From: an uncultured Candidatus Saccharibacteria bacterium
GTDB taxonomy: Bacteria; Patescibacteriota; Minisyncoccia; Phycocordibacterales; UBA9973
Length of the DNA stretch: 64,000 nt
NCBI GenBank assembly: GCA_964554645.1
Contig: CAZKPK010000001.1
Coordinates: 3,697 to 67,696, forward strand
Direction of reading: 5' to 3'
Under the pieces are notes generated by a model that worked only from the letters and a program-made list of their open reading frames with translations, was not told where the DNA came from and searched no databases. Positions within the stretch are counted from its first letter, which is position 1. Every line of letters starts with the position of its first letter. Both the position numbers and the translations under genes were made by a program. Positions 8,384-59,601 of this stretch are shown piece by piece.

Positions 8384-8389
8384 AAAATT

Positions 8390-8437
8390 ATCCACCCCGT
8401 CCTTTGATTACAAAGTCCACCCCTCAAGAGGGGAATC
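8390..8437 (+). repeat. family A hairpin repeat (unit)
   Basis: ATCCACCCCG-[CCTTTGATTACAAAG]-TCCACCCCTCAAGAGGGGAATC; 47 nt identical to 16013-16059; starts 7 nt after pilM stop. Confidence 0.9.
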
Positions 8438-9522: not shown

Positions 9523-9596
9523 GGGGTACTCCGACTTCAGTCGGAGTGGGGTGGATGTATGAGGGGTGACCCGATGACCATCGGGTCGGGGTGGAT
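9510..9596 (-). repeat. family A repeat, tandem pair in inverted orientation
   Basis: ATTCCCCTCTTGAGGGGTA-CTCCGACTTCAGTCGGAG-TGGGGTGGAT + GTATGAGGGGTG-ACCCGATGACCATCGGGT-CGGGGTGGAT; reverse complement of family A consensus. Confidence 0.9.
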
Positions 9597-15953: not shown

Positions 15954-15957
15954 GATT

Positions 15958-16059
15958 GATTCTCCTCTTGAGGAGTACTCCGACTCAGGTCGGAGGGAGG
16001 TGGATGAGTTTTTCCACCCCGTCCTTTGATTACAAAGTCCACCCCTCAAGAGGGGAATC
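15958..16059. repeat. family A inverted doublet (REPIN-like)
   Basis: Reverse unit GATTCTCCTCTTGAGGAG..GGGAGGTGGAT (15958-16005) faces forward unit TCCACCCC..CCCCTCAAGAGGGGAATC (16013-16059); 18-nt terminal inverted repeats, 2 mismatches. Confidence 0.9.
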
Positions 16060-17955: not shown

Positions 17956-18783
17956 ATGCTTTTTTTGCTTTTGGTTATTTTTTTCATCCTCGGTCTCATC
18001 ATCGGCAGCTTTTTGAATGTGATAATTTATCGGCTGAATACAGCCAGATCGTTCGGAGGCAGGAGCGCTTGTATGTCTTGTCAGAACAGGCTTTGCTGGT
18101 ATGAACTTATCCCACTCTTTAGTTTTTTGGGTCTTGGGGGGAGATGCCGAAGCTGTAAAACTAAAATTTCTATCCAATATCCGTTGGTGGAACTTGCGAC
18201 TGGCTTGATTTTCGCCTTGTTATTTTTTAAACTGCAAGATGTTTTTTATACTAATTCTCTGGTTTTTTTCATCACTTATGATTACTTTGCTTTATTGTTT
18301 TCACTTCTTCTAGTCATTGCCACTTATGATCTCAAACATAAAATAATTCCGGATATTTTGTCTTTTGCTTTTGGCGCGCTTGCTTTTATTGGCCTATTTT
18401 TCTTCTCCGCCCAAGGCGGATCCGCCTTTGGCGGAAATAATATTTTTTACCCCCATTTTCCCACAGTTTTAGAATTTTTGTCGGGTGGATTAATAGCGTT
18501 ACCTTTTGCTTTTTTTTGGCTTGTATCTTCCGGTCGGTGGATGGGGTTAGGGGATGCCAAGCTTGCGCTCGGCATTGGGTGGTTTTTAGGCATATCTTCT
18601 GCGCTCTCGGCTTTAGTGGTTGCTTTCTGGTCTGGAGCCATCGTCGGAATAATTCTCGTTATTTTTTCCAGAAATAGAAAAATTGGCAGGCTGGGGATGA
18701 AAAGCGAAATTCCTTTTGCCCCTTTCCTAGTTTTTGGCGCGTTTCTAGCTTTTATTTTTGGATTGAATCTTTTTGGAATTTAA
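17956..18783 (+). CDS. pilD: prepilin peptidase (A24 family)
   Basis: 275 aa; CMSCQNRL..CRSCKTKI zinc motif, YPLVE, GLGDAKL active-site Asp. Confidence 0.93.
   Translation: MLFLLLVIFFILGLIIGSFLNVIIYRLNTARSFGGRSACMSCQNRLCWYELIPLFSFLGLGGRCRSCKTKISIQYPLVELATGLIFALLFFKLQDVFYTNSLVFFITYDYFALLFSLLLVIATYDLKHKIIPDILSFAFGALAFIGLFFFSAQGGSAFGGNNIFYPHFPTVLEFLSGGLIALPFAFFWLVSSGRWMGLGDAKLALGIGWFLGISSALSALVVAFWSGAIVGIILVIFSRNRKIGRLGMKSEIPFAPFLVFGAFLAFIFGLNLFGI
18407..18434 (+). repeat. family D-like double hairpin inside pilD ORF
   Basis: CCGCC-CAA-GGCGG-AT-CCGCC-TTT-GGCGG, translated SAQGGSAFGG. Confidence 0.75.
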
Positions 18784-18792
18784 AAGAATTTT

Positions 18793-19383
18793 ATGTTTAA
18801 GTTGAGTAAAAAAATAAAAAATAACAAAGGAATGACTTATATAGAACTTATTGTTGTTCTCTCTATTTTTGCCATTATGTCTTCCATTATTCTTTATAAT
18901 TATGGAGAATTTCAGGCAAAAGTGGATATCAAAAATTTAGCCAGCGATATCGCTTTGAAAATTGTTGAGGCGCAGAAGTCAGCGCTTTCTGGAAAATGGA
19001 CTTCTGGCGCGGTGGATGGTTGGAAACCATCTTATGGTATATATTTTAATACTTCCAGTGCTGATGAAAAAAAGAAGTTTACTTATTTTGCAGATTTTAA
19101 TAACGATAAAATATATAACGATACTCCGCTAGATACAATAAGTATTACAAAAGGCAATTATATAGAAAAAATAGAAAGTTGCGCAGGTTCTCCCACTATT
19201 TGCGCTTTGGTCACAAACTCCTTTTTGTCAATCATTTTTACAAGACCAAATTCTGGCGCAGTTTTTAGTTCCTTGAGTGGCATACTAACTGGTTTTGATT
19301 ATATTCAAATCACTATTTCCTCACCCCAAGGTAAAACAGCCTTAATAAAAATCTATCCTTCGGGGAGGATACAAGTAAATTAG
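18793..19383 (+). CDS. minor (pseudo)pilin, prepilin-type N-terminal domain
   Basis: 196 aa; NKG|MTYIELIVVLSIFAIM. Confidence 0.85.
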   Translation: MFKLSKKIKNNKGMTYIELIVVLSIFAIMSSIILYNYGEFQAKVDIKNLASDIALKIVEAQKSALSGKWTSGAVDGWKPSYGIYFNTSSADEKKKFTYFADFNNDKIYNDTPLDTISITKGNYIEKIESCAGSPTICALVTNSFLSIIFTRPNSGAVFSSLSGILTGFDYIQITISSPQGKTALIKIYPSGRIQVN

Positions 19384-19414
19384 GTTTTAGGTTCTAGCTA
19401 CTAGGTTCTAGTAA
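19380..19414 (+). repeat. 7-nt-phased YTAG array (5 heptads) starting at stop codon
   Basis: TTAGGTT TTAGGTT CTAGCTA CTAGGTT CTAGTAA; first TAG is the stop codon of 18793..19383. Confidence 0.9.
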
Positions 19415-19423
19415 TACAAAAAA

Positions 19424-20044
19424 ATGCAAGATAAAAATAACAAACAAAAGAGGTTCACCCACCAAAATTTTCTAAAGAAAATTTCAGGCGGGTTCACTAT
19501 AATCGAAACAATGATTGCTATCTCTCTTTTTTTGGTTGTTGTCATGTCAGGCATGAACGCTCTTTTGAATGCTAATTTGCTTCATCAAAAATCGGGAGAC
19601 ATGCGTTCTATTTTGGATAATTTAAGTTTTATTATGGAAGATATGTCTAGAAATTTAAGGACGGGGTATGATTATTATTGTATCCTAGCTGGAGAAACAA
19701 TTCCCAGTGGGACAGTTAATCCTCGAAGTTGTACTGACGGAGTAGGAATTTCCTTCAAATCTGCTACTAGTGGTCAGTGGGTATATTATGTAGGTAATAA
19801 TCCTAATAGCGTGTATGGTATTTTTAGAAAAATTGGAGCAGAAACCGTTCAATTGACTCCCAATGAAGTTGTTATTACGTCAACTTCTCTTGTTTCAGTT
19901 TTAGGCGCAGAACCGCCACCGGGCAACAGCCAACAACCCTTTGTTACTATTAGATTAGTCGGAAAAATAATCTTAAAAAATAATGTTGAAACGCCATTTT
20001 CTTTGCAAACCTCGGTGTCCCAAAGGTTAATAGATGTTATATGA
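19424..20044 (+). CDS. minor pilin, prepilin-type N-terminal domain
   Basis: 206 aa; SGG|FTIIETMIAISLFLVVV. Confidence 0.85.
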   Translation: MQDKNNKQKRFTHQNFLKKISGGFTIIETMIAISLFLVVVMSGMNALLNANLLHQKSGDMRSILDNLSFIMEDMSRNLRTGYDYYCILAGETIPSGTVNPRSCTDGVGISFKSATSGQWVYYVGNNPNSVYGIFRKIGAETVQLTPNEVVITSTSLVSVLGAEPPPGNSQQPFVTIRLVGKIILKNNVETPFSLQTSVSQRLIDVI

Positions 20045-20593: not shown

Positions 20594-23222
<2,629 letters not shown>

Positions 23223-23325: not shown

Positions 23326-23410
23326 GGAGGGTTCGCATAGCGGTCTAGTGCGCACGCTTGGAAAGCGTGTGTGGAGCAATCCACCAGGAGTCCGAATCTC
23401 CTACCCTCCG
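23326..23410 (+). tRNA. tRNA-Ser (anticodon GGA)
   Basis: Manual fold. Acceptor GGAGGGT/ACCCTCC. D arm GCAT-AGCGGTCTA-GTGC. Anticodon stem CACGC/GCGTG with loop TTGGAAA. Long variable arm TGTGGAGCAATCCACC. T arm AGGAG-TCCGAAT-CTCCT. Discriminator G; CCA not encoded. Confidence 0.85.
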
Positions 23411-23421
23411 CACGAATAAAG

Positions 23422-37357: not shown

Positions 37358-37582
37358 ATGGTAGTCCGAATGAGAAGCACAAAATCGCATACGAAAAATA
37401 GACGTTCGCATCATGCGTTGGCTAAGGCTAATTTTTCAAAGTGCGAGCATTGCAAAGCCTTGAAAAAACGCCATACAGTATGTTCTGCTTGCGGGTTTTA
37501 TCGAGGAAAAAAAGTTTTGGATCTAGTTAAGAAAACAGAAAAGAAACAGAAGAAAGAAAAAGCGGCTCAAGCAAAGAATTAG
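37358..37582 (+). CDS. rpmF: 50S ribosomal protein L32
   Basis: 74 aa; KSHTKNRRSHHAL, Cys4 (CEHC..CSAC). Confidence 0.9.
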   Translation: MVVRMRSTKSHTKNRRSHHALAKANFSKCEHCKALKKRHTVCSACGFYRGKKVLDLVKKTEKKQKKEKAAQAKN

Positions 37583-37620
37583 TTACTAGGGGCTAGTGGC
37601 TAGGGACTAGAACCTAGAAG
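37579..37620 (+). repeat. 7-nt-phased CTAG array (6 heptads) starting at rpmF stop codon
   Basis: TTAGTTA CTAGGGG CTAGTGG CTAGGGA CTAGAAC CTAGAAG; CTAG at 37586, 37593, 37600, 37607, 37614. Confidence 0.92.
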
Positions 37621-37636
37621 CTATAACCTAATTTTT

Positions 37637-38593
37637 ATGGCCAATAGGCACCTTTCCAGATCAATAGTGCTCCAAACGCTTTTTGAGTGGGATTTTATGT
37701 CCGCTGGGAAAGAGAGTATCAGTTCTATTAATGGCGAGATTAAGAAAGTATTGGACAGAAATTTAAAAGAATTTGCTCCCGGACTCGAAGATGACAGTTT
37801 TGTTTTTTCGCTTTTAAATGAAGTGTTAAAAAATTGTGTTCGGGTTGATCAAATTATAGAAACATCAGCGCCGGATTGGCCGATAAATAAAATTTCTGTC
37901 GTTGATAGAAATATTCTCCGAATCGGATTAACGGAACTTCTTTTCAGCGACCGATCGCAAGTGCCCCCAAAAGTGGCGATTAACGAAGCGATTGAATTGG
38001 CAAAAACTTTTGGCGGAGAGAATTCCAGTAAATTTATAAACGGCGTACTCGGAGCAGTTTATAAAGAAATGGGTGAACCTGGCAAGGAGCAAACGAGCAA
38101 AAAGAAAAATCGCAATCAATCCAAAGAACAGGGAAAAACGTTGGACCTCACCAAACTGCCGGTTGAAAACTTGGGCGGCGCGTTAGTTTATGCAACAAAA
38201 GATGGGAATATTTTATTTGCGCTTGTGCATGATGTTTTTGGCTACTGGACTCTTTCTAAAGGCAAAGTCGAAAAAAAGGAAAGTGTTCAGGAAGGGACAG
38301 TAAGAGCAATCAAGAAGGAAATCGGGCTTGATGTTGTGCTAGAAGAAAAACTTGGGGAAAATGAATATGTTGCAACCCACCCAGAAAAAGGAAAAAGCCT
38401 GAAGAAAGTTATATATTTTTTGGCGTATAGCGAATACAAGGAGCTTATTTTGGAAAAATCCGGCGGACTCGATGGGGCCAGATGGTTTGAAATGATGGAG
38501 GTGCCGGAACTTCGCATTTATAATGACATTATTCCGCTTATTGAAAAGGCGGTCGAAATATTGAGCAGTAAAAAACAAAAGAACAGTCAATAA
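37637..38593 (+). CDS. nusB: NusB antitermination factor fused to a C-terminal NUDIX hydrolase domain
   Basis: 318 aa; NusB core (ILRIGLTELLF, VAINEAIELAKTFGG, KFINGVLG); Lys-rich linker; NUDIX box GKVEKKESVQEGTVRAIKKEIGL. Confidence 0.85.
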   Translation: MANRHLSRSIVLQTLFEWDFMSAGKESISSINGEIKKVLDRNLKEFAPGLEDDSFVFSLLNEVLKNCVRVDQIIETSAPDWPINKISVVDRNILRIGLTELLFSDRSQVPPKVAINEAIELAKTFGGENSSKFINGVLGAVYKEMGEPGKEQTSKKKNRNQSKEQGKTLDLTKLPVENLGGALVYATKDGNILFALVHDVFGYWTLSKGKVEKKESVQEGTVRAIKKEIGLDVVLEEKLGENEYVATHPEKGKSLKKVIYFLAYSEYKELILEKSGGLDGARWFEMMEVPELRIYNDIIPLIEKAVEILSSKKQKNSQ

Positions 38594-44154: not shown

Positions 44155-44433
44155 TTATTCTAATAACTTTGGATGCGAGCCTATGTCTACCAAAAGCAAC
44201 ACTAATTCTTTTTCTAAAATTTTATATATTAACAAAACATTCGGATATATATGACATTCGCGCGCGCCTTCCAATTTGCCTTTTAATTTATGGTCTCTAT
44301 ATGCTGGGTCTAGGGGAATTTGTTTCTGAATTAATAATATTATTTTTTCAAGTTTAAAAATAGAAAAACTCTCATGCCTTAAGTATATTTTCAAAGACTT
44401 TTGATATTTCTTTGATTTAATTACCGAGAGCAT
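44155..44433 (-). CDS. yafQ: YafQ-family type II toxin (RelE superfamily)
   Basis: 92 aa; DHKLKGKLEGARECHIYPNVLLIYK..DIGSH. Confidence 0.85.
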   Translation of the reverse strand: MLSVIKSKKYQKSLKIYLRHESFSIFKLEKIILLIQKQIPLDPAYRDHKLKGKLEGARECHIYPNVLLIYKILEKELVLLLVDIGSHPKLLE

Positions 44434-44721
44434 TTATTTCTTGTTTAAAATAGTAGAATGCAATTCTCTAATGCTTTTATAAGATTTTATTTTTTTATTT
44501 TTAAGATCATTCACGGTATTTTCTATTTCTTTGGCAAGCTCGGACTCATATTCATCAGTATATCCATTTATAGTTTTTAGTTCAAAGGGAATGCGCTGTT
44601 GTTCCACACTTTGGTGCAAAAAGAGCTTCACTGCACTCGATATATCGAGTCCCATGCGCGCAAAAGTCTTACGGGCGTCTTCTTTTATCTTTTCGTCAAT
44701 TCGTATATTTAATGTAGTCAT
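44434..44721 (-). CDS. dinJ: RelB/DinJ-family antitoxin
   Basis: 95 aa from ATG 44721 (MTTLNIRIDEKIKEDARKTFARMGLDISSAVKLFL); the longer track ORF reads through the promoter. Confidence 0.85.
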   Translation of the reverse strand: MTTLNIRIDEKIKEDARKTFARMGLDISSAVKLFLHQSVEQQRIPFELKTINGYTDEYESELAKEIENTVNDLKNKKIKSYKSIRELHSTILNKK

Positions 44722-44728
44722 AGAATTT

Positions 44729-44764
44729 AGTATATACATTGTGCGCACAAAGTCAAGTCTTGAC
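44729..44764 (-). promoter_or_regulatory. dinJ-yafQ promoter with two palindromic operators
   Basis: Minus strand: TTGACT (44756-44751), 16 nt, TATACT (44734-44729). TTGTGCGCACAA (44739-44750) fills the spacer. GTCAAGTCTTGAC (44752-44764) overlaps the -35. Confidence 0.6.
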
Positions 44765-44966
44765 AATAGGGTCAAGATATGCGATACTATCAGAGATATG
44801 TTTTTACCTTTGTTGATAGTTATAGCTATCATCATGCTATGCGTGACGATGGCGTGGTTGAAGGACGAGGATAGGTAATTCTCGTCCAAGTTCAAAAAGC
44901 TGGCACGTCCAAGGTCGTGCTAGCTTTTTTGTTTGCAATTTTTCATTTTTATGTTAGACTTACTAA

Positions 44967-45403: not shown

Positions 45404-45745
45404 ATGCAAGACGCTGATAAGATATTTTTGGAATATGTGGTGAAAGCTCTTGTTGACAATCCGAACGATGTGAAGATTGAAAGGACTGTTGATGAGATGG
45501 GCGTGCTTATCTCGCTGACTGTGAATCCGGCCGATATGGGCAAAATTATCGGAAGAATGGGGAACACCGCTAAAGCTATTCGTACTTTGTTGCGAATTAT
45601 CGGTATGAAAAATAACGCCCGGGTGAACTTGAAAATCAACGAACCAGAAGGAAGCACCAGAGGACAAGGGTCCATAACCTCTCCGAGTGTTCCAAGTTCG
45701 CTGAAGACAGTAGATCAGGCAATGGAAGACCTGAAAGGAATTTAA
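45404..45745 (+). CDS. KH-domain RNA-binding protein (YlqC/UPF0109-like)
   Basis: 113 aa; GKIIGRMGNTAKAIRTLL (GxxG loop); conserved position after rpsP. Confidence 0.85.
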   Translation: MQDADKIFLEYVVKALVDNPNDVKIERTVDEMGVLISLTVNPADMGKIIGRMGNTAKAIRTLLRIIGMKNNARVNLKINEPEGSTRGQGSITSPSVPSSLKTVDQAMEDLKGI

Positions 45746-45773
45746 TTAGGTTCTAGTGACTAGGTTCTAGGAA
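45746..45773 (+). repeat. 7-nt-phased YTAG array (4 heptads) directly after stop codon
   Basis: TTAGGTT CTAGTGA CTAGGTT CTAGGAA; near-identical to 19387-19411. Confidence 0.9.
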
Positions 45774-45776
45774 AAG

Positions 45777-45800
45777 GCTCAGAGTAATCTGGGCTTTTTT
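45777..45800 (+). terminator. rho-independent terminator
   Basis: GCTCAGA-GTAA-TCTGGGC (one G.U) + TTTTTT. Confidence 0.7.
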
Positions 45801-45833
45801 GTTTGCTTTTTTCAGCCAGAAGCTATAATCTAG

Positions 45834-53100: not shown

Positions 53101-53791
53101 TCCCGCCTCTGGCGGGACAGGTGTAAAATCTGCTCACTCCCGCGATATTTCAGGATCCGGCGGGGAAAAAATAATCAAAGTGCTTTCAGATCTGGAAGAT
53201 AGTAAGGCGGGGGCTAAAAACGAAATAGAATATCTTGTTCCGTTTCACAGAATGCCTACCGTTAAAGCAGGTGATCACATAAAGAAAGGGGATCTCCTAA
53301 CTGACGGGTCAGCGGATATTGCTGAAATGTTTAAATTTGGCAACAAGGAATTAGTCGAAAATTATATAATTCGGGAAATAAACAAAGTTTATGAATTGCA
53401 AAGCGCTTCAATTTCCAGAAAGCATACGGAAATAATTATCCGCCAAATGTTTTCGCGCCGAAAAATAAAAGACGCGGGCGACACTAATTTTTCCATCGGC
53501 GATATTGTTGAGAATACCGCATTTATAGAAGAAAATCAGAGAGTTGCGCGCTTGGCGGTTAAACCGCCAAGCGCGCTTGGCGGTTTAACCGCCAAAGCAG
53601 AAACAGTGGTGCTTGGTATCACGGAAGTGTCGCTTCGCACTAAAAGTTGGCTCTCGGCGGCTTCGTTCCAAAACACCAATCGCGTTCTTATTGAAAACGC
53701 GGTCAAGGGCGGGGTAGATTCTTTGAGAGGGTTAAAAGAGAATGTTATAATCGGTAGGTTAATTCCGGCTGGAACTGGATTTAAAAAATAA
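50120..53791 (+). CDS. rpoC: DNA-directed RNA polymerase subunit beta'
   Basis: 1223 aa; Zn CYCGKY..CEKCGV, NADFDGDQMAV, GEAVGIIAAQAIGEPGTQLTLRTFH. Confidence 0.98.
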   Translation: MKTLNTTEFNSIALRLASPEQIKEWSFGEVTKPETINYRTGRSERGGLFDEKIFGPEKDYECYCGKYRRIRYKDIICEKCGVEVTRSIVRRERMGHIELGTPVSHIWFLRGVPSRMSILLNISVTDLEKVIYFAGYIITKVHEDEKEAVIANLDKEYKSKLKNATDDDTREKLKNLLSITKKEIGEIYEGKVLNEISFHHYSLKYGTCFEANIGAEAIYSIFKNLDLDKLKTHTEKMIEKASVAEKEKLQKRLSLIRAMTYAGIRPEWMFLTVFPVIPPVLRPMVALDGGRHATSDLNDLYRRVINRNNRLKKLKEINAPDVILRNEKRIIQEAVDALIDNSIAKQNDSAAMSQSQKRPLKSLSDNLKSKQGLFRQNLLGKRVDYSGRSVIVVGPELKLNQCGLPKHMALELFRPFVISKILQAELAFNIRGANKLIEERGGEVWAMLEEVIAGKYVLLNRAPTLHRLGIQAFNPILIEGNAIQVHPLVCQAFNADFDGDQMAVYVPLLEEAQWEAKEFMASNKNLLKPQNGDPIVHPRMDMVLGSFWMTKSIEGEVGEGKYFSRPNTAVTAYDYGIISMRAKIKVLPMDKPKYKKFNGEIFETTVGRIIFNSILPDDFHYVNDEMTQDRLSSLLDELIMHSGVENIPHILDTIKAFGFKYSTISGTTWGLDNVSVSSEKPKIIAEGKKLEKEIISQWQEGLLSEEEKYQKVIEVWTHMKKNLEKVLPKTVDKHSSTYDIFTSKARGTMSSLMQMTGMIGLIQNNQGKTLEFPIIPCYQEGLSPIEYFVITHGARKGASDTALNTAKAGYLTRRLVDVAQDVVITEVDCGTKEGRIVTKENISGIEIPLSKNIRGRVLAGDLKNKNGKVVYKKGFLVTKEEAYNIEGAGFTEVFVRSPLTCRTVHGLCVMCYGLDLGRNRLVELGEAVGIIAAQAIGEPGTQLTLRTFHAGGVAGTDITTGLPRVEEIFERRIPKNPAIISETDGEVIEIKIKDPASGGTGVKSAHSRDISGSGGEKIIKVLSDLEDSKAGAKNEIEYLVPFHRMPTVKAGDHIKKGDLLTDGSADIAEMFKFGNKELVENYIIREINKVYELQSASISRKHTEIIIRQMFSRRKIKDAGDTNFSIGDIVENTAFIEENQRVARLAVKPPSALGGLTAKAETVVLGITEVSLRTKSWLSAASFQNTNRVLIENAVKGGVDSLRGLKENVIIGRLIPAGTGFKK
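53102..53116. repeat. GC hairpin within a GC-rich segment of rpoC
   Basis: CCCGCC-TCT-GGCGGG; surrounding 53095-53170 encodes DPASGGTGVKSAHSRDISGSGGE. Confidence 0.55.
53546..53597. repeat. family C palindrome doublet inside rpoC
   Basis: GCGCGCTTGGCGGTT-A-AACCGCCAAGCGCGC (31-nt perfect palindrome) + CTTGGCGGTTTAACCGCCAAAG; translated LAVKPPSALGGLTAK. Confidence 0.92.
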
Positions 53792-55495: not shown

Positions 55496-55753
55496 ATGCA
55501 AGTTGATTTTCATAACCATTTTAGAAAACAGTACAAAAAATTGTCTATGAAAATAAAAGAAAAATTTAATGAGAGGTTAATTGTTTTCAAAAATAATCCA
55601 TTCACATCAGAATTGAACAACCATACTCTTCATGGGAAATATTCAGGATGTAGAAGTATAAATGTGACGGGAGACATTCGAGCGATATATGAAGTTAGAG
55701 AAAAAGGAGTTAGGTTTCTGGATATCGATACGCATAGCAATTTATATAAATAA
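55496..55753 (+). CDS. RelE/YafQ-family mRNA interferase toxin
   Basis: 85 aa; FRKQYKKL, NNHTLHGKYSGCRSINVTGDIRAIY, DTHSNLY. Confidence 0.8.
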   Translation: MQVDFHNHFRKQYKKLSMKIKEKFNERLIVFKNNPFTSELNNHTLHGKYSGCRSINVTGDIRAIYEVREKGVRFLDIDTHSNLYK

Positions 55754-59551: not shown

Positions 59552-59596
59552 ATTCCCCTCTTGAGGGGTGGCTCGGTAATCCGAGACGGGGTGGAT
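59552..59596 (-). repeat. family A repeat unit directly after dsbA-like stop
   Basis: ATTCCCCTCTTGAGGGGTGG-CTCGGTAATCCGAG-ACGGGGTGGAT. Confidence 0.9.
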
Positions 59597-59601
59597 GTAT
59601 T

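What the first reader, a model, noticed from the sequence alone, without database searches (positions are those of the whole stretch)
37579..37620. Heptad-phased CTAG array beginning at the rpmF stop codon puts stop codons in all six frames
Six consecutive 7-nt units (TTAGTTA CTAGGGG CTAGTGG CTAGGGA CTAGAAC CTAGAAG) place CTAG exactly every 7 nt, and the first TAG is the rpmF stop itself. Because 7 mod 3 = 1 and CTAG is its own reverse complement, the array gives TAG in all three frames on both strands. The same architecture recurs after two other genes (19380 and 45746). CTAG is usually a rare tetranucleotide in bacteria, so a phased cluster is unlikely to be neutral. Possible roles, all inference, include: (1) a universal translation stop or insulator in a genome where translatable repeats invade ORFs; (2) a protein-binding array; (3) a target or footprint of a CTAG-specific enzyme.
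Basis: partly seen in the sequence, partly recalled or inferred. Interest (0 to 1): 0.7.

Follow-up and report, generated by a model that had tools for sequence, protein, structure and literature searches.

The report
CTAG heptad repeats at gene ends
The phased CTAG cluster after rpmF is real: it is one copy of a small family of 7-base 'YTAGG' repeats that sit exactly at gene boundaries in these Nomurabacteria (candidate phyla radiation, CPR) and, in related form, in many other bacteria. It is a new variant of the poorly understood heptanucleotide repeats already known to hug stop codons, and its function is still unproven.

Summary
TAG recurs at exactly 7-nt spacing at three places in the window: 6 TAGs after rpmF, 5 after a pilin-like gene and 4 after khpA. 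No other period does this, and shuffles give none.

All three sites share one 25-mer, TTAGGTTCTAG-NNN-CTAGGTTCTAG. At rpmF it lies inverted, abutting the nusB start, next to a locus-specific arm.

The genome is a Candidatus Nomurabacteria MAG. In 80 related species, TAG runs of at least 4 occur 33 times at period 7 and never at periods 4-6 or 8-12. They are often convergent pairs of arms.

The unit is directional, Y-TAG-G-N-N. The TAG strand is the coding strand of the upstream gene, and the first TAG is often the stop codon. TAGGCNY arrays show the same placement in metagenomic contigs of 34-71% GC.

The rpmF array is 91-95% identical between species whose flanking synonymous sites are about 50% identical. 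Yet the closest relative lacks it.

TAG is almost never replaced by TAA. What is preserved is therefore a sequence motif, not simply a stop codon.

The closest known kind is the intergenic heptamer repeats of Xanthomonas, Nostoc and Beggiatoaceae. My verdict is a new variant of a known kind. I favour a periodic recognition element whose six-frame stops are built in rather than the selected function.

The parts
37358..37582 (+). rpmF (ribosomal protein L32). Its TAG stop at 37580-37582 is the first TAG of the array.
   Evidence: ORF list; Pfam Ribosomal_L32p, E 1.6e-15.
37579..37606 (+). Left arm, specific to this locus: T-TAGTTAC TAGGGGC TAGTGGC TAGGGAC, forward heptads with TAG on the coding strand.
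   Evidence: The arm is conserved nearly base for base in L134, L173 and L329.
37607..37631 (-). Right arm: an inverted copy of the dispersed 25-mer, reading TTAGGTTATAGCTTCTAGGTTCTAG on the - strand. It ends 5 nt before the nusB ATG.
   Evidence: 1 mismatch to the 25-mer; 0 expected by chance.
37637..38593 (+). nusB-NUDIX fusion gene, downstream neighbour of the array.
   Evidence: Pfam NusB plus NUDIX.
19380..19411 (+). Site 1: TTAGGTT plus the 25-mer TTAGGTTCTAGCTACTAGGTTCTAG. The first TAG (19381-19383) is the stop of the pilin-like ORF 18793-19383. The next pilin-like ORF starts at 19424.
   Evidence: 0 mismatches.
45746..45770 (+). Site 3: the 25-mer TTAGGTTCTAGTGACTAGGTTCTAG, starting 1 nt after the TAA stop of khpA (45404-45745).
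   Evidence: 0 mismatches. Arrays occur at the same position in L138, L161 and L169.
45771..45800 (+). Intrinsic-terminator-like hairpin plus T-run, immediately after the site 3 array.
   Evidence: 13-pair stem then a T-run; centroid fold shows only this hairpin.
45823..45833 (-). Possible 2-unit remnant of a convergent arm after the terminator (CTATAATCTAG). Low confidence.
   Evidence: Read directly. For comparison, L161 has a clear - strand arm after its terminator.

Best explanation
What it is (high confidence). The rpmF cluster is a member of a dispersed family of heptanucleotide repeats with the directional unit Y-TAG-G-N-N. The repeats occupy the short spacers at gene boundaries in Candidatus Nomurabacteria. 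The TAG (G-richer) strand points away from the neighbouring gene: it is the coding strand after a stop codon and the non-coding strand before a start codon. In this window the family is represented by one 25-mer present three times. The rpmF site is that 25-mer inverted, plus a locus-specific 4-unit arm. Related TAGGCNY arrays with the same placement occur in unrelated bacteria.

How it works (inferred, moderate to low confidence). It is a sequence-specific periodic cis-element. The (Y)TAGG core repeated every 7 nt is read by a factor that recognises several repeats at once. That factor is most likely an oligomeric protein binding the transcript or the DNA at the cistron boundary. The geometry matches what is known for HutP on UAG-N4-UAG-N4-UAG RNA and for ribbon-helix-helix (RHH) proteins on contiguous 7-bp DNA heptads. 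The element would tune what happens between stop and next start, such as ribosome release and re-initiation, termination, or transcript processing.

The stop codons in all six frames are an intrinsic property of the YTAG core, not the selected function. They have real consequences. They confine the element to non-coding DNA, they let the first unit double as the gene's stop codon, and no ribosome can cross the spacer in any frame. Copy number changes by slippage.
For: Shown:
- Period 7 only, in the window and in 1.32 Mb from 80 related species: 33 TAG runs of at least 4 at period 7, none at periods 4-6 or 8-12.
- In an unbiased Tandem Repeats Finder (TRF) scan, every period-7 array that is not A/T low complexity is of YTAG/CTAR type, apart from one AAAGTTA-type array (L143).
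- Positions that were not used to find the arrays are constrained: the base before TAG is a pyrimidine in 97% of units and never G, and the base after TAG is G in 75%.
- TAG positions deviate from consensus in 6 of 270 cases against 38 of 350 for other arm positions (Fisher p = 2e-5), with a single TAG-to-TAA change.
- The window-type array is 91-95% identical in window, L134 and L173. Their adjacent nusB third-codon positions are 51-57% identical and rpmF-tail third positions 43-57% (window against L134, L329 and L148), with no recombination tract in the flanks.
- The GGC-type (TAGGCNY-unit) element is 82% identical across species against about 50% at third-codon positions.
- Orientation and stop adjacency hold in independent metagenomic arrays behind real, unrelated genes. 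One such contig is related to Chthonomonadaceae.
- The unit subtype is the same at all sites of a genome but differs between genomes at the same site, and GC content does not explain this. That is what co-evolution with a trans-acting factor, or family turnover, would produce.
- Arms typically carry 4-5 TAGs.
- The arrays are identical in four assemblies of the same population, so they are not hypermutable contingency loci.

Inferred: the existence and nature of the binding factor.
Against: - No binding partner was identified. A TrpR-family gene lies near the locus in some relatives, but not in this window, and its presence there does not track array presence.
- The distribution across very different bacteria argues against any lineage-specific binder.
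- Presence is labile. The closest relative (92% NusB identity) has no array at either site, and the distribution on the NusB tree is patchy. That pattern is typical of selfish or mobile repeats.
- Forward and reverse arms give different RNAs, so a single RNA-binding protein cannot read both. A DNA binder could.
- The positional rules are also reported for G-rich heptamers with other sequences (PMC4692102), so part of the pattern may be generic to heptamer repeats rather than to this motif.
Confidence: 0.4

Rival explanations
1. Selfish or neutral repeat. The arrays are slippage-prone heptanucleotide repeats, or a tiny REP/MITE-like mobile family, with no host function. Selection only removes copies that hit ORFs, which is inevitable because they carry stops in six frames. 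Survivors therefore pile up against stop and start codons.
For: - One 25-mer is dispersed three times in 64 kb.
- Copy number differs between orthologous arrays: 3 against 6 right-arm units.
- Decayed copies exist in L329, L203, L151, L157 and L182.
- Distribution is patchy, and the closest relative has none.
- The same spacer hosts other palindromic elements in other species.
- Heptanucleotides are reported as the most abundant long simple sequence repeat (SSR) class in prokaryotes, attributed to polymerase slippage (PMC4679880, citing Mrazek 2007).
Against: - Array sequence, including the variable positions and the order of units, is conserved far beyond synonymous saturation and in a site-specific way. 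Same-site scores are 53-71 against 23-44 for different sites in the same genome.
- No target-site duplication and no terminal inverted repeat plus core structure were seen, and no transposase appears in the Pfam lists for the parts of the window they cover (about 1.4-23.2 kb and 27.6-64 kb).
- Both strands carry stops, yet orientation relative to the upstream gene is biased 43 to 16. Pure exclusion from ORFs does not predict that.
- Arrays are identical in four assemblies of the population.
Confidence: 0.27
2. Fail-safe all-frame translation stop or insulator. The arrays are selected because they release any ribosome that reads through or frameshifts at the stop codon. That protects a downstream terminator hairpin or the next cistron. 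The need might be greater in CPR bacteria with reduced ribosomes.
For: - TAGs fall in all three frames on the coding strand directly at or after the stop: window 3 of 3, and 16 metagenomic arrays start with the stop codon.
- The TAG strand is biased to the coding strand.
- Arrays sit between stop and intrinsic terminator at khpA in four species and in L254 and L228.
- The reverse arm also reads TAA/TAG in three frames on the mRNA just before the next start.
Against: - TAG is kept rather than TAA or TGA in an AT-rich genome that prefers TAA, and the neighbouring Y and G are also conserved. The constraint is therefore on a motif, not on 'a stop'.
- There are 4-10 units where 3 would do.
- Only about 5% of genes carry one.
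- Arrays are lost without replacement in the closest relative.
- Heptamers without stops show the same placement (PMC4692102).
Confidence: 0.13
3. Intercistronic RNA hairpin. The two convergent arms pair in the transcript and act as an RNase III processing site, a 3' stabiliser, or a translational-coupling hairpin that brings the rpmF stop next to the nusB start.
For: - Two-arm GGC-type elements fold far better than shuffles: L163 z = -5.2 on the + strand and -5.8 on the - strand; L148 z = -4.0 and -3.3.
- They flank nusB on both sides, next to rnc, in L190, L174, L178 and L308.
- In L161 the arms bracket the khpA terminator.
Against: - The window's own array does not fold significantly (z = -1.6 on +, -0.3 on -), and the single arms at sites 1 and 3 are unstructured.
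- RNAalifold finds almost no covariation. The mismatches are conserved as A.C on the mRNA strand and G.U on the antisense strand, not compensated.
- In several metagenomic pairs the arms are not complementary at the variable positions.
Confidence: 0.12
4. Target or footprint of a CTAG-specific enzyme, such as a restriction-modification system, Vsr-type repair or transposase target duplications.
For: The core CTAG is palindromic, and YTAGG equals C-T-W-G-G, the Vsr/Dcm-type context (own knowledge). Some viral arrays mix CCAGG and CTAGG units.
Against: - CTAG is neither depleted nor enriched overall in the window.
- TTAG units are as good as CTAG units (C 57%, T 40%).
- No CCAGG units occur in the Nomurabacteria arrays.
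- There is no mechanism for a strict 7-nt phase.
Confidence: 0.03

Closest known systems
G-rich intergenic heptamer repeats of Xanthomonas (GGGAATC) and Nostoc (GGGGA(C/T)T), Rehm et al. 2015, PMC4692102
   Same: - Tandem 7-nt units with a preference for about 4 copies.
- Strongly intergenic.
- After ORFs they lie on the coding strand within 0-50 bp of the stop codon or overlapping it. Before ORFs they lie on the non-coding strand.
- Some occur as inverted pairs.
- The same sites are used in related species, with length and sequence variation.
- Flanking genes have random functions, and the function of the repeats is unknown.
   Different: - The unit sequence differs.
- Those repeats carry no stop codons and form G-quadruplexes. 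The CTAG arrays have too few G3 tracts for a canonical G4 (read).
- Here a 5-nt core (YTAGG) is fixed while 2 positions vary.
- The host is a CPR bacterium.
TAACTGA direct repeats of marine Beggiatoaceae, cyanobacteria and Bacteroidetes, MacGregor 2015, PMC4679880
   Same: - Heptamer direct repeats of 2-6 copies in intergenic DNA.
- They are scattered over unrelated phyla.
- The unit contains stop codons, so forward repeats cannot lie in ORFs. The author notes this restricts their location.
- A binding site for a post-transcriptional regulator was proposed.
   Different: - The sequence is different (TAA and TGA, not TAG).
- They lie mostly just upstream of start codons rather than at stop codons.
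- The reverse strand is translatable (LSVISYQ), whereas YTAG arrays stop all six frames.
Cyanobacterial STRR heptanucleotide repeats (CCCCAGT, TTGGTCA, CAACAGT; Mazel et al. 1990, own knowledge)
   Same: Tandem heptamers in intergenic DNA, specific to a lineage, with unknown function.
   Different: The unit sequences are unrelated, arrays are usually longer and more uniform, and no stop-codon anchoring is described.
REP / REPIN elements (GTAG-tagged palindromes mobilised by RAYT transposases), PMC3733652
   Same: They are short, extragenic and predominantly downstream of genes, often occur as inverted dimers, form families specific to a genome, and carry a 'TAG'-containing tag.
   Different: - Each REP is a 20-40 bp palindrome. 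The heptad arms are not palindromes.
- The REP tag is GTAG, whereas G never precedes TAG here.
- No RAYT was seen in the window.
HutP binding site on hut mRNA, (UAG-N4)x3 (own knowledge: Kumarevel et al. 2005), and TRAP (G/U)AG repeats
   Same: The geometry is exactly the same on RNA: UAG every 7 nt, read by a ring-shaped oligomer, next to a terminator. It is a working model for how such an array could act.
   Different: - No HutP or TRAP gene is known or seen here.
- HutP sites are two separated triplets inside a terminator.
- Reverse arms cannot be read as UAG on the mRNA.
Omega repressor operators of pSM19035: contiguous 7-bp heptads WATCACW in direct and inverted orientation (own knowledge: Weihofen et al. 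2006). Also tandem CTAG-centred TrpR operators.
   Same: Contiguous 7-bp (8-bp for TrpR) DNA units occur in direct and convergent arrays. Each unit is bound by one dimer, and CTAG is the core of TrpR sites.
   Different: The sequences differ, those sites are promoters or centromeres rather than gene 3' ends, and the binder is untested here.
Tandem (fail-safe) stop codons
   Same: Additional stops lie shortly after the primary stop.
   Different: Fail-safe stops are in-frame only, can be any stop codon, and have no 7-nt phase or conserved flanking bases.

Membership tests
Intergenic heptanucleotide SSRs that hug stop codons (Xanthomonas/Nostoc type) | Tandem 7-nt units, typically about 4 copies | tested here: met
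   Arms carry 4-6 TAGs in the window. The mode is 4-5 in relatives. TRF reports period 7.
Intergenic heptanucleotide SSRs that hug stop codons (Xanthomonas/Nostoc type) | Intergenic; on the coding strand within 50 bp of, or overlapping, the stop codon; on the non-coding strand before start codons | tested here: met
   Window: 3 of 3 arrays at offsets of 0, 0 and +4 nt from the stop codon. The reverse arm ends 5-9 nt before the nusB ATG. In the metagenome set the orientation split is 43 to 16.
Intergenic heptanucleotide SSRs that hug stop codons (Xanthomonas/Nostoc type) | Same sites in related species, with length and sequence variation | tested here: met
   The rpmF, nusB and khpA sites recur. 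The right arm has 3 units in one species and 6 in another.
Intergenic heptanucleotide SSRs that hug stop codons (Xanthomonas/Nostoc type) | Four or more G3 tracts able to form a G-quadruplex | tested here: not met
   Site 2 has only two G3+ tracts. GTT-type (TAGGTTC-unit) and GGC-type (TAGGCNY-unit) units have GG only (read).
REP/REPIN (GTAG superfamily) | Each unit is a 20-40 bp imperfect palindrome | tested here: not met
   Single arms do not fold better than shuffles (site 1 z = -0.2).
REP/REPIN (GTAG superfamily) | Conserved GTAG tetranucleotide tag | tested here: not met
   The base before TAG is C 57%, T 40%, A 3% and G 0%.
REP/REPIN (GTAG superfamily) | Cognate RAYT (Y1 transposase) gene in the genome | not testable with these tools
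   Only 64 kb of the genome is held. None appears in the Pfam lists, which cover about 1.4-23.2 kb and 27.6-64 kb of the window.
MITE | Terminal inverted repeats around a core, with target-site duplication | tested here: inconclusive
   Convergent arms exist, but no duplication is visible at the three window copies. The closest relative has wholly different spacers, so no empty site is available for comparison.
HutP-type RNA operator | At least 3 UAG on the transcript, spaced by 4 nt | tested here: met
HutP-type RNA operator | HutP-family protein encoded by the organism | not testable with these tools
None is in the window.
Intrinsic terminator | GC-rich hairpin followed by a U-tract | tested here: not met
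   The rpmF array has no significant hairpin (z = -1.6) and no T-run before the nusB ATG. Only site 3 is followed by a separate terminator.
Fail-safe tandem stop codons | Any stop codon serves, so TAA, TAG and TGA are interchangeable | tested here: not met
   One TAG-to-TAA change in 90 orthologous TAGs. At period 7, TAG runs of at least 4 number 33, against 6 for TAA and 0 for TGA.
Known RNA families (Rfam 15) | Match to a curated covariance model | tested here: not met
   There are 0 hits at gathering score in the window. Only a chance-level hit (E = 0.52) lies near the array.

The most novel reading that the evidence does not exclude
YTAGG heptad arrays are a previously unrecognised, cross-phylum class of cis-elements at cistron boundaries. 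In this reading a periodic (Y)UAGG/(Y)TAGG platform, anchored on the stop codon, is read several repeats at a time by a conserved oligomeric factor, or by the terminating ribosome with RF1. It insulates or couples neighbouring cistrons, and its specificity co-evolves with the unit subtype of each genome.
Probability: 0.2. Interest if true: 0.8.

Novelty: new variant of a known kind. Interest (0 to 1): 0.55.

Why it matters
Heptanucleotide repeats next to stop codons have been reported in a few bacterial groups for decades without any function being established. This case adds four things:
- A CPR lineage with tiny, compact genomes, where useless DNA should not persist.
- A fixed 5-nt core that includes the stop codon itself.
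- Strong sequence conservation, measured against saturated synonymous sites.
- Evidence that one core (TAGGCNY) recurs at real stop codons in contigs of 34-71% GC, at least one of them related to a phylum outside the CPR (Armatimonadota).

That makes the question 'what reads a 7-nt phased repeat at a gene end?' directly testable. Defined motifs, defined mutations (TAG to TAA, phase shifts) and defined candidate binders are now in hand.

There is also a practical point for annotation. These arrays supply the stop codon of real genes and can mislead gene callers and repeat maskers.

Tried and rejected
- **G-quadruplex**, the explanation proposed for the Xanthomonas and Nostoc heptamers. Rejected: there are too few G3 tracts.
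- **A stable hairpin or terminator at the rpmF site.** Rejected for the window (z = -1.6 and -0.3). It holds only for two-arm GGC-type elements in relatives, and even there without covariation.
- **Known RNA family.** None found.
- **CTAG rarity as an argument.** Rejected: 117 observed against 128 expected.
- **GC content as the cause of genome-specific unit subtypes.** Rejected.
- **A recent recombination tract carrying the array between species.** Flanking synonymous identity is only 0.4-0.57, so there is no support.
- **Intragenomic dispersal as the sole source of similarity.** Same-site elements in different species are more alike than different sites in one genome.
- **A generic 4xCTAG scan of viral contigs.** The 25-mer scan of viral contigs gave 7 hits; the three already inspected (L012, L028, L066) are near-perfect (CTAGAAC)n repeats, and the other four were not read.
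- **Literature search for TAGGC-type heptad strings.** Nothing relevant. The Mrazek 2007 paper could not be fetched.
- **TrpR-family gene as binder.** It is present near the locus in 7 relatives, but its presence there does not track array presence, and it is absent from this window. It remains only a lead.
- **HutP homologue search.** Not run, because the top hits would all be Firmicutes and could not show presence in CPR.
Full report
**1. The observation**

The sequence at 37579-37634 is TTAGTTA CTAGGGG CTAGTGG CTAGGGA CTAGAAC CTAGAAG CTATAAC CTAATTT. TAG occurs six times at exact 7-nt spacing on the + strand, starting at 37580. On the - strand it occurs seven times, seen as CTA on the + strand from 37586.

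The first TAG is the stop of the 74-aa ORF 37358-37582, which is ribosomal protein L32. The next gene, a NusB-NUDIX fusion, starts at 37637.

Three CTAGs at period 7 occur five times, at three loci, against none in 100 shuffles. TAG runs of at least 3 exist only at period 7, apart from one 3-run at period 9.

The two other loci are also gene ends:
- At 19381 the first of five TAGs is the stop of a pilin-like ORF.
- At 45747 four TAGs begin one base after the TAA stop of khpA and are followed at once by an intrinsic-terminator-like hairpin.

The arrays are identical in the NCBI record (GCA_016186455.1, JACPLP010000008.1) and in three Logan assemblies.

CTAG as a tetranucleotide is not rare here: 117 observed against 128 +/- 11 expected. 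The genome uses all three stop codons, with TAA preferred (40 TAA, 14 TAG, 9 TGA).

**2. Anatomy in the window**

The three sites are copies of one 25-mer, TTAGGTTCTAG-NNN-CTAGGTTCTAG:
- 19387-19411, + strand, 0 mismatches.
- 45746-45770, + strand, 0 mismatches.
- 37607-37631, - strand, 1 mismatch.

None is expected by chance.

The rpmF cluster is therefore composite. It consists of a locus-specific forward arm (TAGTTAC TAGGGGC TAGTGGC TAGGGAC) and an inverted copy of the dispersed 25-mer that ends 5 nt before the nusB ATG. Because CTAG is its own complement, the 7-nt phase runs through the junction.

**3. Relatives**

The organism is a Candidatus Nomurabacteria (Parcubacteria/Paceibacterota, CPR). 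Eighty related species loci, 1.32 Mb in total, were fetched.

- TAG runs of at least 4 occur 33 times at period 7 and never at periods 4-6 or 8-12. No other trinucleotide tested behaves this way.
- A TRF scan that ignores TAG finds 52 period-7 arrays. Twenty-six are of YTAG/CTAR type. The rest are A/T low complexity, apart from one AAAGTTA-type array (L143).

The usual architecture is two convergent arms. A forward arm sits at the stop codon of the upstream gene. After a short A/T-rich spacer, or a terminator, a reverse arm ends 5-9 nt before the next start codon.

The unit is directional. A pyrimidine precedes TAG in 97% of units and G never does. G follows TAG in 75%. Then come C/T and a variable base. 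Arms mostly carry 4-5 TAGs.

The recurring sites are rpmF-nusB, nusB-rnc and khpA-trmD.

**4. Wider distribution**

After removing telomere-like eukaryotic hits and arrays near contig ends, 80 arrays remained.

| Measure | TAG strand | Other side, other strand |
|---|---|---|
| ORF of at least 100 codons running into the array | 43 | 16 |
| ORF of at least 200 codons running into the array | 27 | 7 |

For the 43 TAG-strand cases, the position of the ORF's stop was:

| Stop position | Cases |
|---|---|
| First TAG of the array | 16 |
| Second TAG | 4 |
| Third TAG | 7 |
| 5-15 nt before the array | 16 |

Ten of these ORFs are full-length genes of unrelated function: transketolase, PolB, glutathione peroxidase, DUF3179, SdhA, a phosphatase-like protein, aldose epimerase, a beta-propeller protein, MCP and S58 peptidase.

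One contig with two such arrays has Chthonomonadaceae (Armatimonadota) relatives. Eighteen of the 80 arrays have a convergent arm within 60 nt.

**5. Evidence for constraint**

| Comparison | Array or element identity | Flanking third-codon identity |
|---|---|---|
| Window-type array (window, L134, L173) | 91-95% over aligned columns | nusB 51-57%; rpmF tail 43-57% (window vs L134, L329, L148) |
| GGC-type (TAGGCNY-unit) rpmF-site element | mean 82%, up to 92% | nusB about 50%; rpmF tail 40% |

- For the window-type array, nusB first and second codon positions are 82-88% identical, so the array is at least as conserved as those positions.
- Repeat similarity alone does not explain this. Elements at the same site in different species score 53-71, against 23-44 for different sites in one genome.
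- Within arms, TAG positions deviate from consensus in 6 of 270 cases against 38 of 350 for other positions (p = 2e-5). Only one TAG became TAA.

**6. Evidence for lability**

- The closest relative, L327, has 92% NusB identity and 86-88% nucleotide identity in genes. It has no array at rpmF-nusB or after khpA. Its rpmF-nusB spacer carries a different conserved element.
- On a NusB tree, array-bearing species are scattered among species with other spacer elements or none.
- Copy number differs between orthologous arrays: 3 against 6 units.
- Decayed arrays exist.
- The unit subtype is genome-specific rather than site-specific. It is GTT (TAGGTTC units) in the window and GGC at every site in L161, L174, L190 and L308. 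GC content does not explain this.

**7. Structure**

- The window's rpmF array does not fold better than shuffles (z = -1.6 on the + strand, -0.3 on the - strand).
- Sites 1 and 3 are unstructured, apart from the separate terminator at site 3.
- Two-arm GGC-type elements do fold: L163 z = -5.2 on + and -5.8 on -. They are more stable as antisense RNA, because the regular mismatches are A.C on the mRNA strand and G.U on the other.
- RNAalifold on ten orthologues shows mostly invariant pairs, conserved G.U pairs and no real covariation.
- No Rfam family matches.

**8. Interpretation**

So is the claim that the arrays are tied to stop codons.

The preferred reading, a universal translation stop, explains the placement. 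It does not explain these points:
- TAG, its preceding pyrimidine and its following G are conserved in a genome that prefers TAA.
- Arms are longer than three units.
- Only about 5% of genes have an array.
- A second arm faces the next start codon.
- Heptamers without stops follow the same placement rules (PMC4692102).

A purely selfish or neutral repeat explains the patchiness and the copy-number change. It does not explain site-specific conservation beyond synonymous saturation, or the orientation bias.

I therefore favour a sequence-specific periodic recognition element. Its six-frame stops are built in and consequential but are not the selected function.

Three precedents show that 7-nt phased repeats can be read several at a time. 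These rest on my own knowledge and were not tested here:
- HutP on UAG-N4 repeats.
- Ribbon-helix-helix (RHH) proteins on contiguous 7-bp heptads in direct and inverted arrays.
- TrpR on tandem CTAG operators.

A TrpR-family gene lies near the locus in seven relatives, but not in this window, and its presence there does not track array presence.

**9. Comparison and novelty**

The closest described kind is the class of intergenic heptanucleotide repeats. It includes GGGAATC and GGGGA(C/T)T (PMC4692102), TAACTGA (PMC4679880) and the cyanobacterial STRR repeats. These share the 7-nt unit, about 4 copies, stop-codon proximity on the coding strand, inverted pairs, conserved sites with variable length, and unknown function.

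The CTAG arrays meet those features, but not the G-quadruplex feature. They are not GTAG-type REPs (PMC3733652). I found no paper containing TAGGC-type heptad strings.

I rate this a new variant of a known kind. It is a real and probably functional feature whose mechanism remains open.

Noticed in passing
L127, L128, L133, L135, L140, L142, L147, L168, L172, L183 and L327, about 80 nt upstream of nusB (for example L327:9925-10000): In species without heptads, the rpmF-nusB spacer often holds a conserved GC hairpin followed by GGGATGCTCATAAATTATATTCA. GCTCATAAA resembles boxA (from memory). It may be a Nus-factor autoregulatory site for nusB.
   Followed up: no
L129, L130, L132, L150, L165, L176, L179 and L191 upstream of nusB; also L137, L153 and L195: The same spacer holds other periodic or palindromic elements in other species. 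One is an AAAGTT/AACTTT-type hairpin. Another is a 'cctcaccccg...ggggtgaggtg' palindrome. The spacer is a hotspot for alternative cassettes.
   Followed up: partly
window 18485-18527 and 21779-21914: The window carries 43 nt and 136 nt that the NCBI record JACPLP010000008.1 lacks. With them the prepilin peptidase (17956-18783) and DNA ligase (21045-23222) ORFs are intact. In the NCBI record both genes are split. The 136-nt segment lies at a repeat, so an assembly collapse in the public record is likely.
   Followed up: partly
window 21766-21807 and 53546-53595: The palindrome GGCGGTTAAACCGCC is tandemly repeated (19-nt and 25-nt units) inside the DNA ligase and rpoC reading frames without breaking them.
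   Followed up: no
window about 8384-8430, 9523-9570, 15954-16000 and 59555-59601: Related GC-rich palindromic elements ('ccaccccg...', '...ggagtggggtgg', 'cctcttgagg...') follow several genes. This is a second dispersed repeat family in the window.
   Followed up: no
L329:7941-8339 (- strand); homologues in L125, L130, L186, L162, L129, L201 and L205: A TrpR-family (PF01371) small HTH gene lies between gyrB and thrS in several relatives. E. coli TrpR operators are tandem CTAG sites (from memory). It is a candidate reader of CTAG arrays, but its presence there does not track array presence.
   Followed up: partly
window 23326-23411: ARAGORN calls a tRNA-Ser(gga), but the Rfam gathering-threshold scan of the whole window returned no hit at all, not even tRNA.
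   Followed up: no
window 44155-44895 and 55496-55753: Two YafQ-type toxin genes lie in the window. One is paired with a RelB antitoxin gene, next to the rpsP-khpA-trmD operon.
   Followed up: no
L236, L237, L249, L250, L278, L291 and L310 (metagenome hits): Some TAGGCTT arrays grade into long TTTAGGG/TTTAGGC tracts. These are probably eukaryotic (algal or plant-type) telomeric or subtelomeric repeats, not the bacterial element. Contigs with tandem TTTAGGG were excluded from the statistics.
   Followed up: partly
L006, L026, L071, L094 and L059 (viral contigs): Phage-like contigs carry imperfect CTAG heptad arrays with convergent arms, for example TAGCTTC TAGCCTT TAGCCTC CAG CTAGGAG CTAGAAG CTAGCAG CTAG. 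L006 has three per contig. The architecture is the same as in the window.
   Followed up: no
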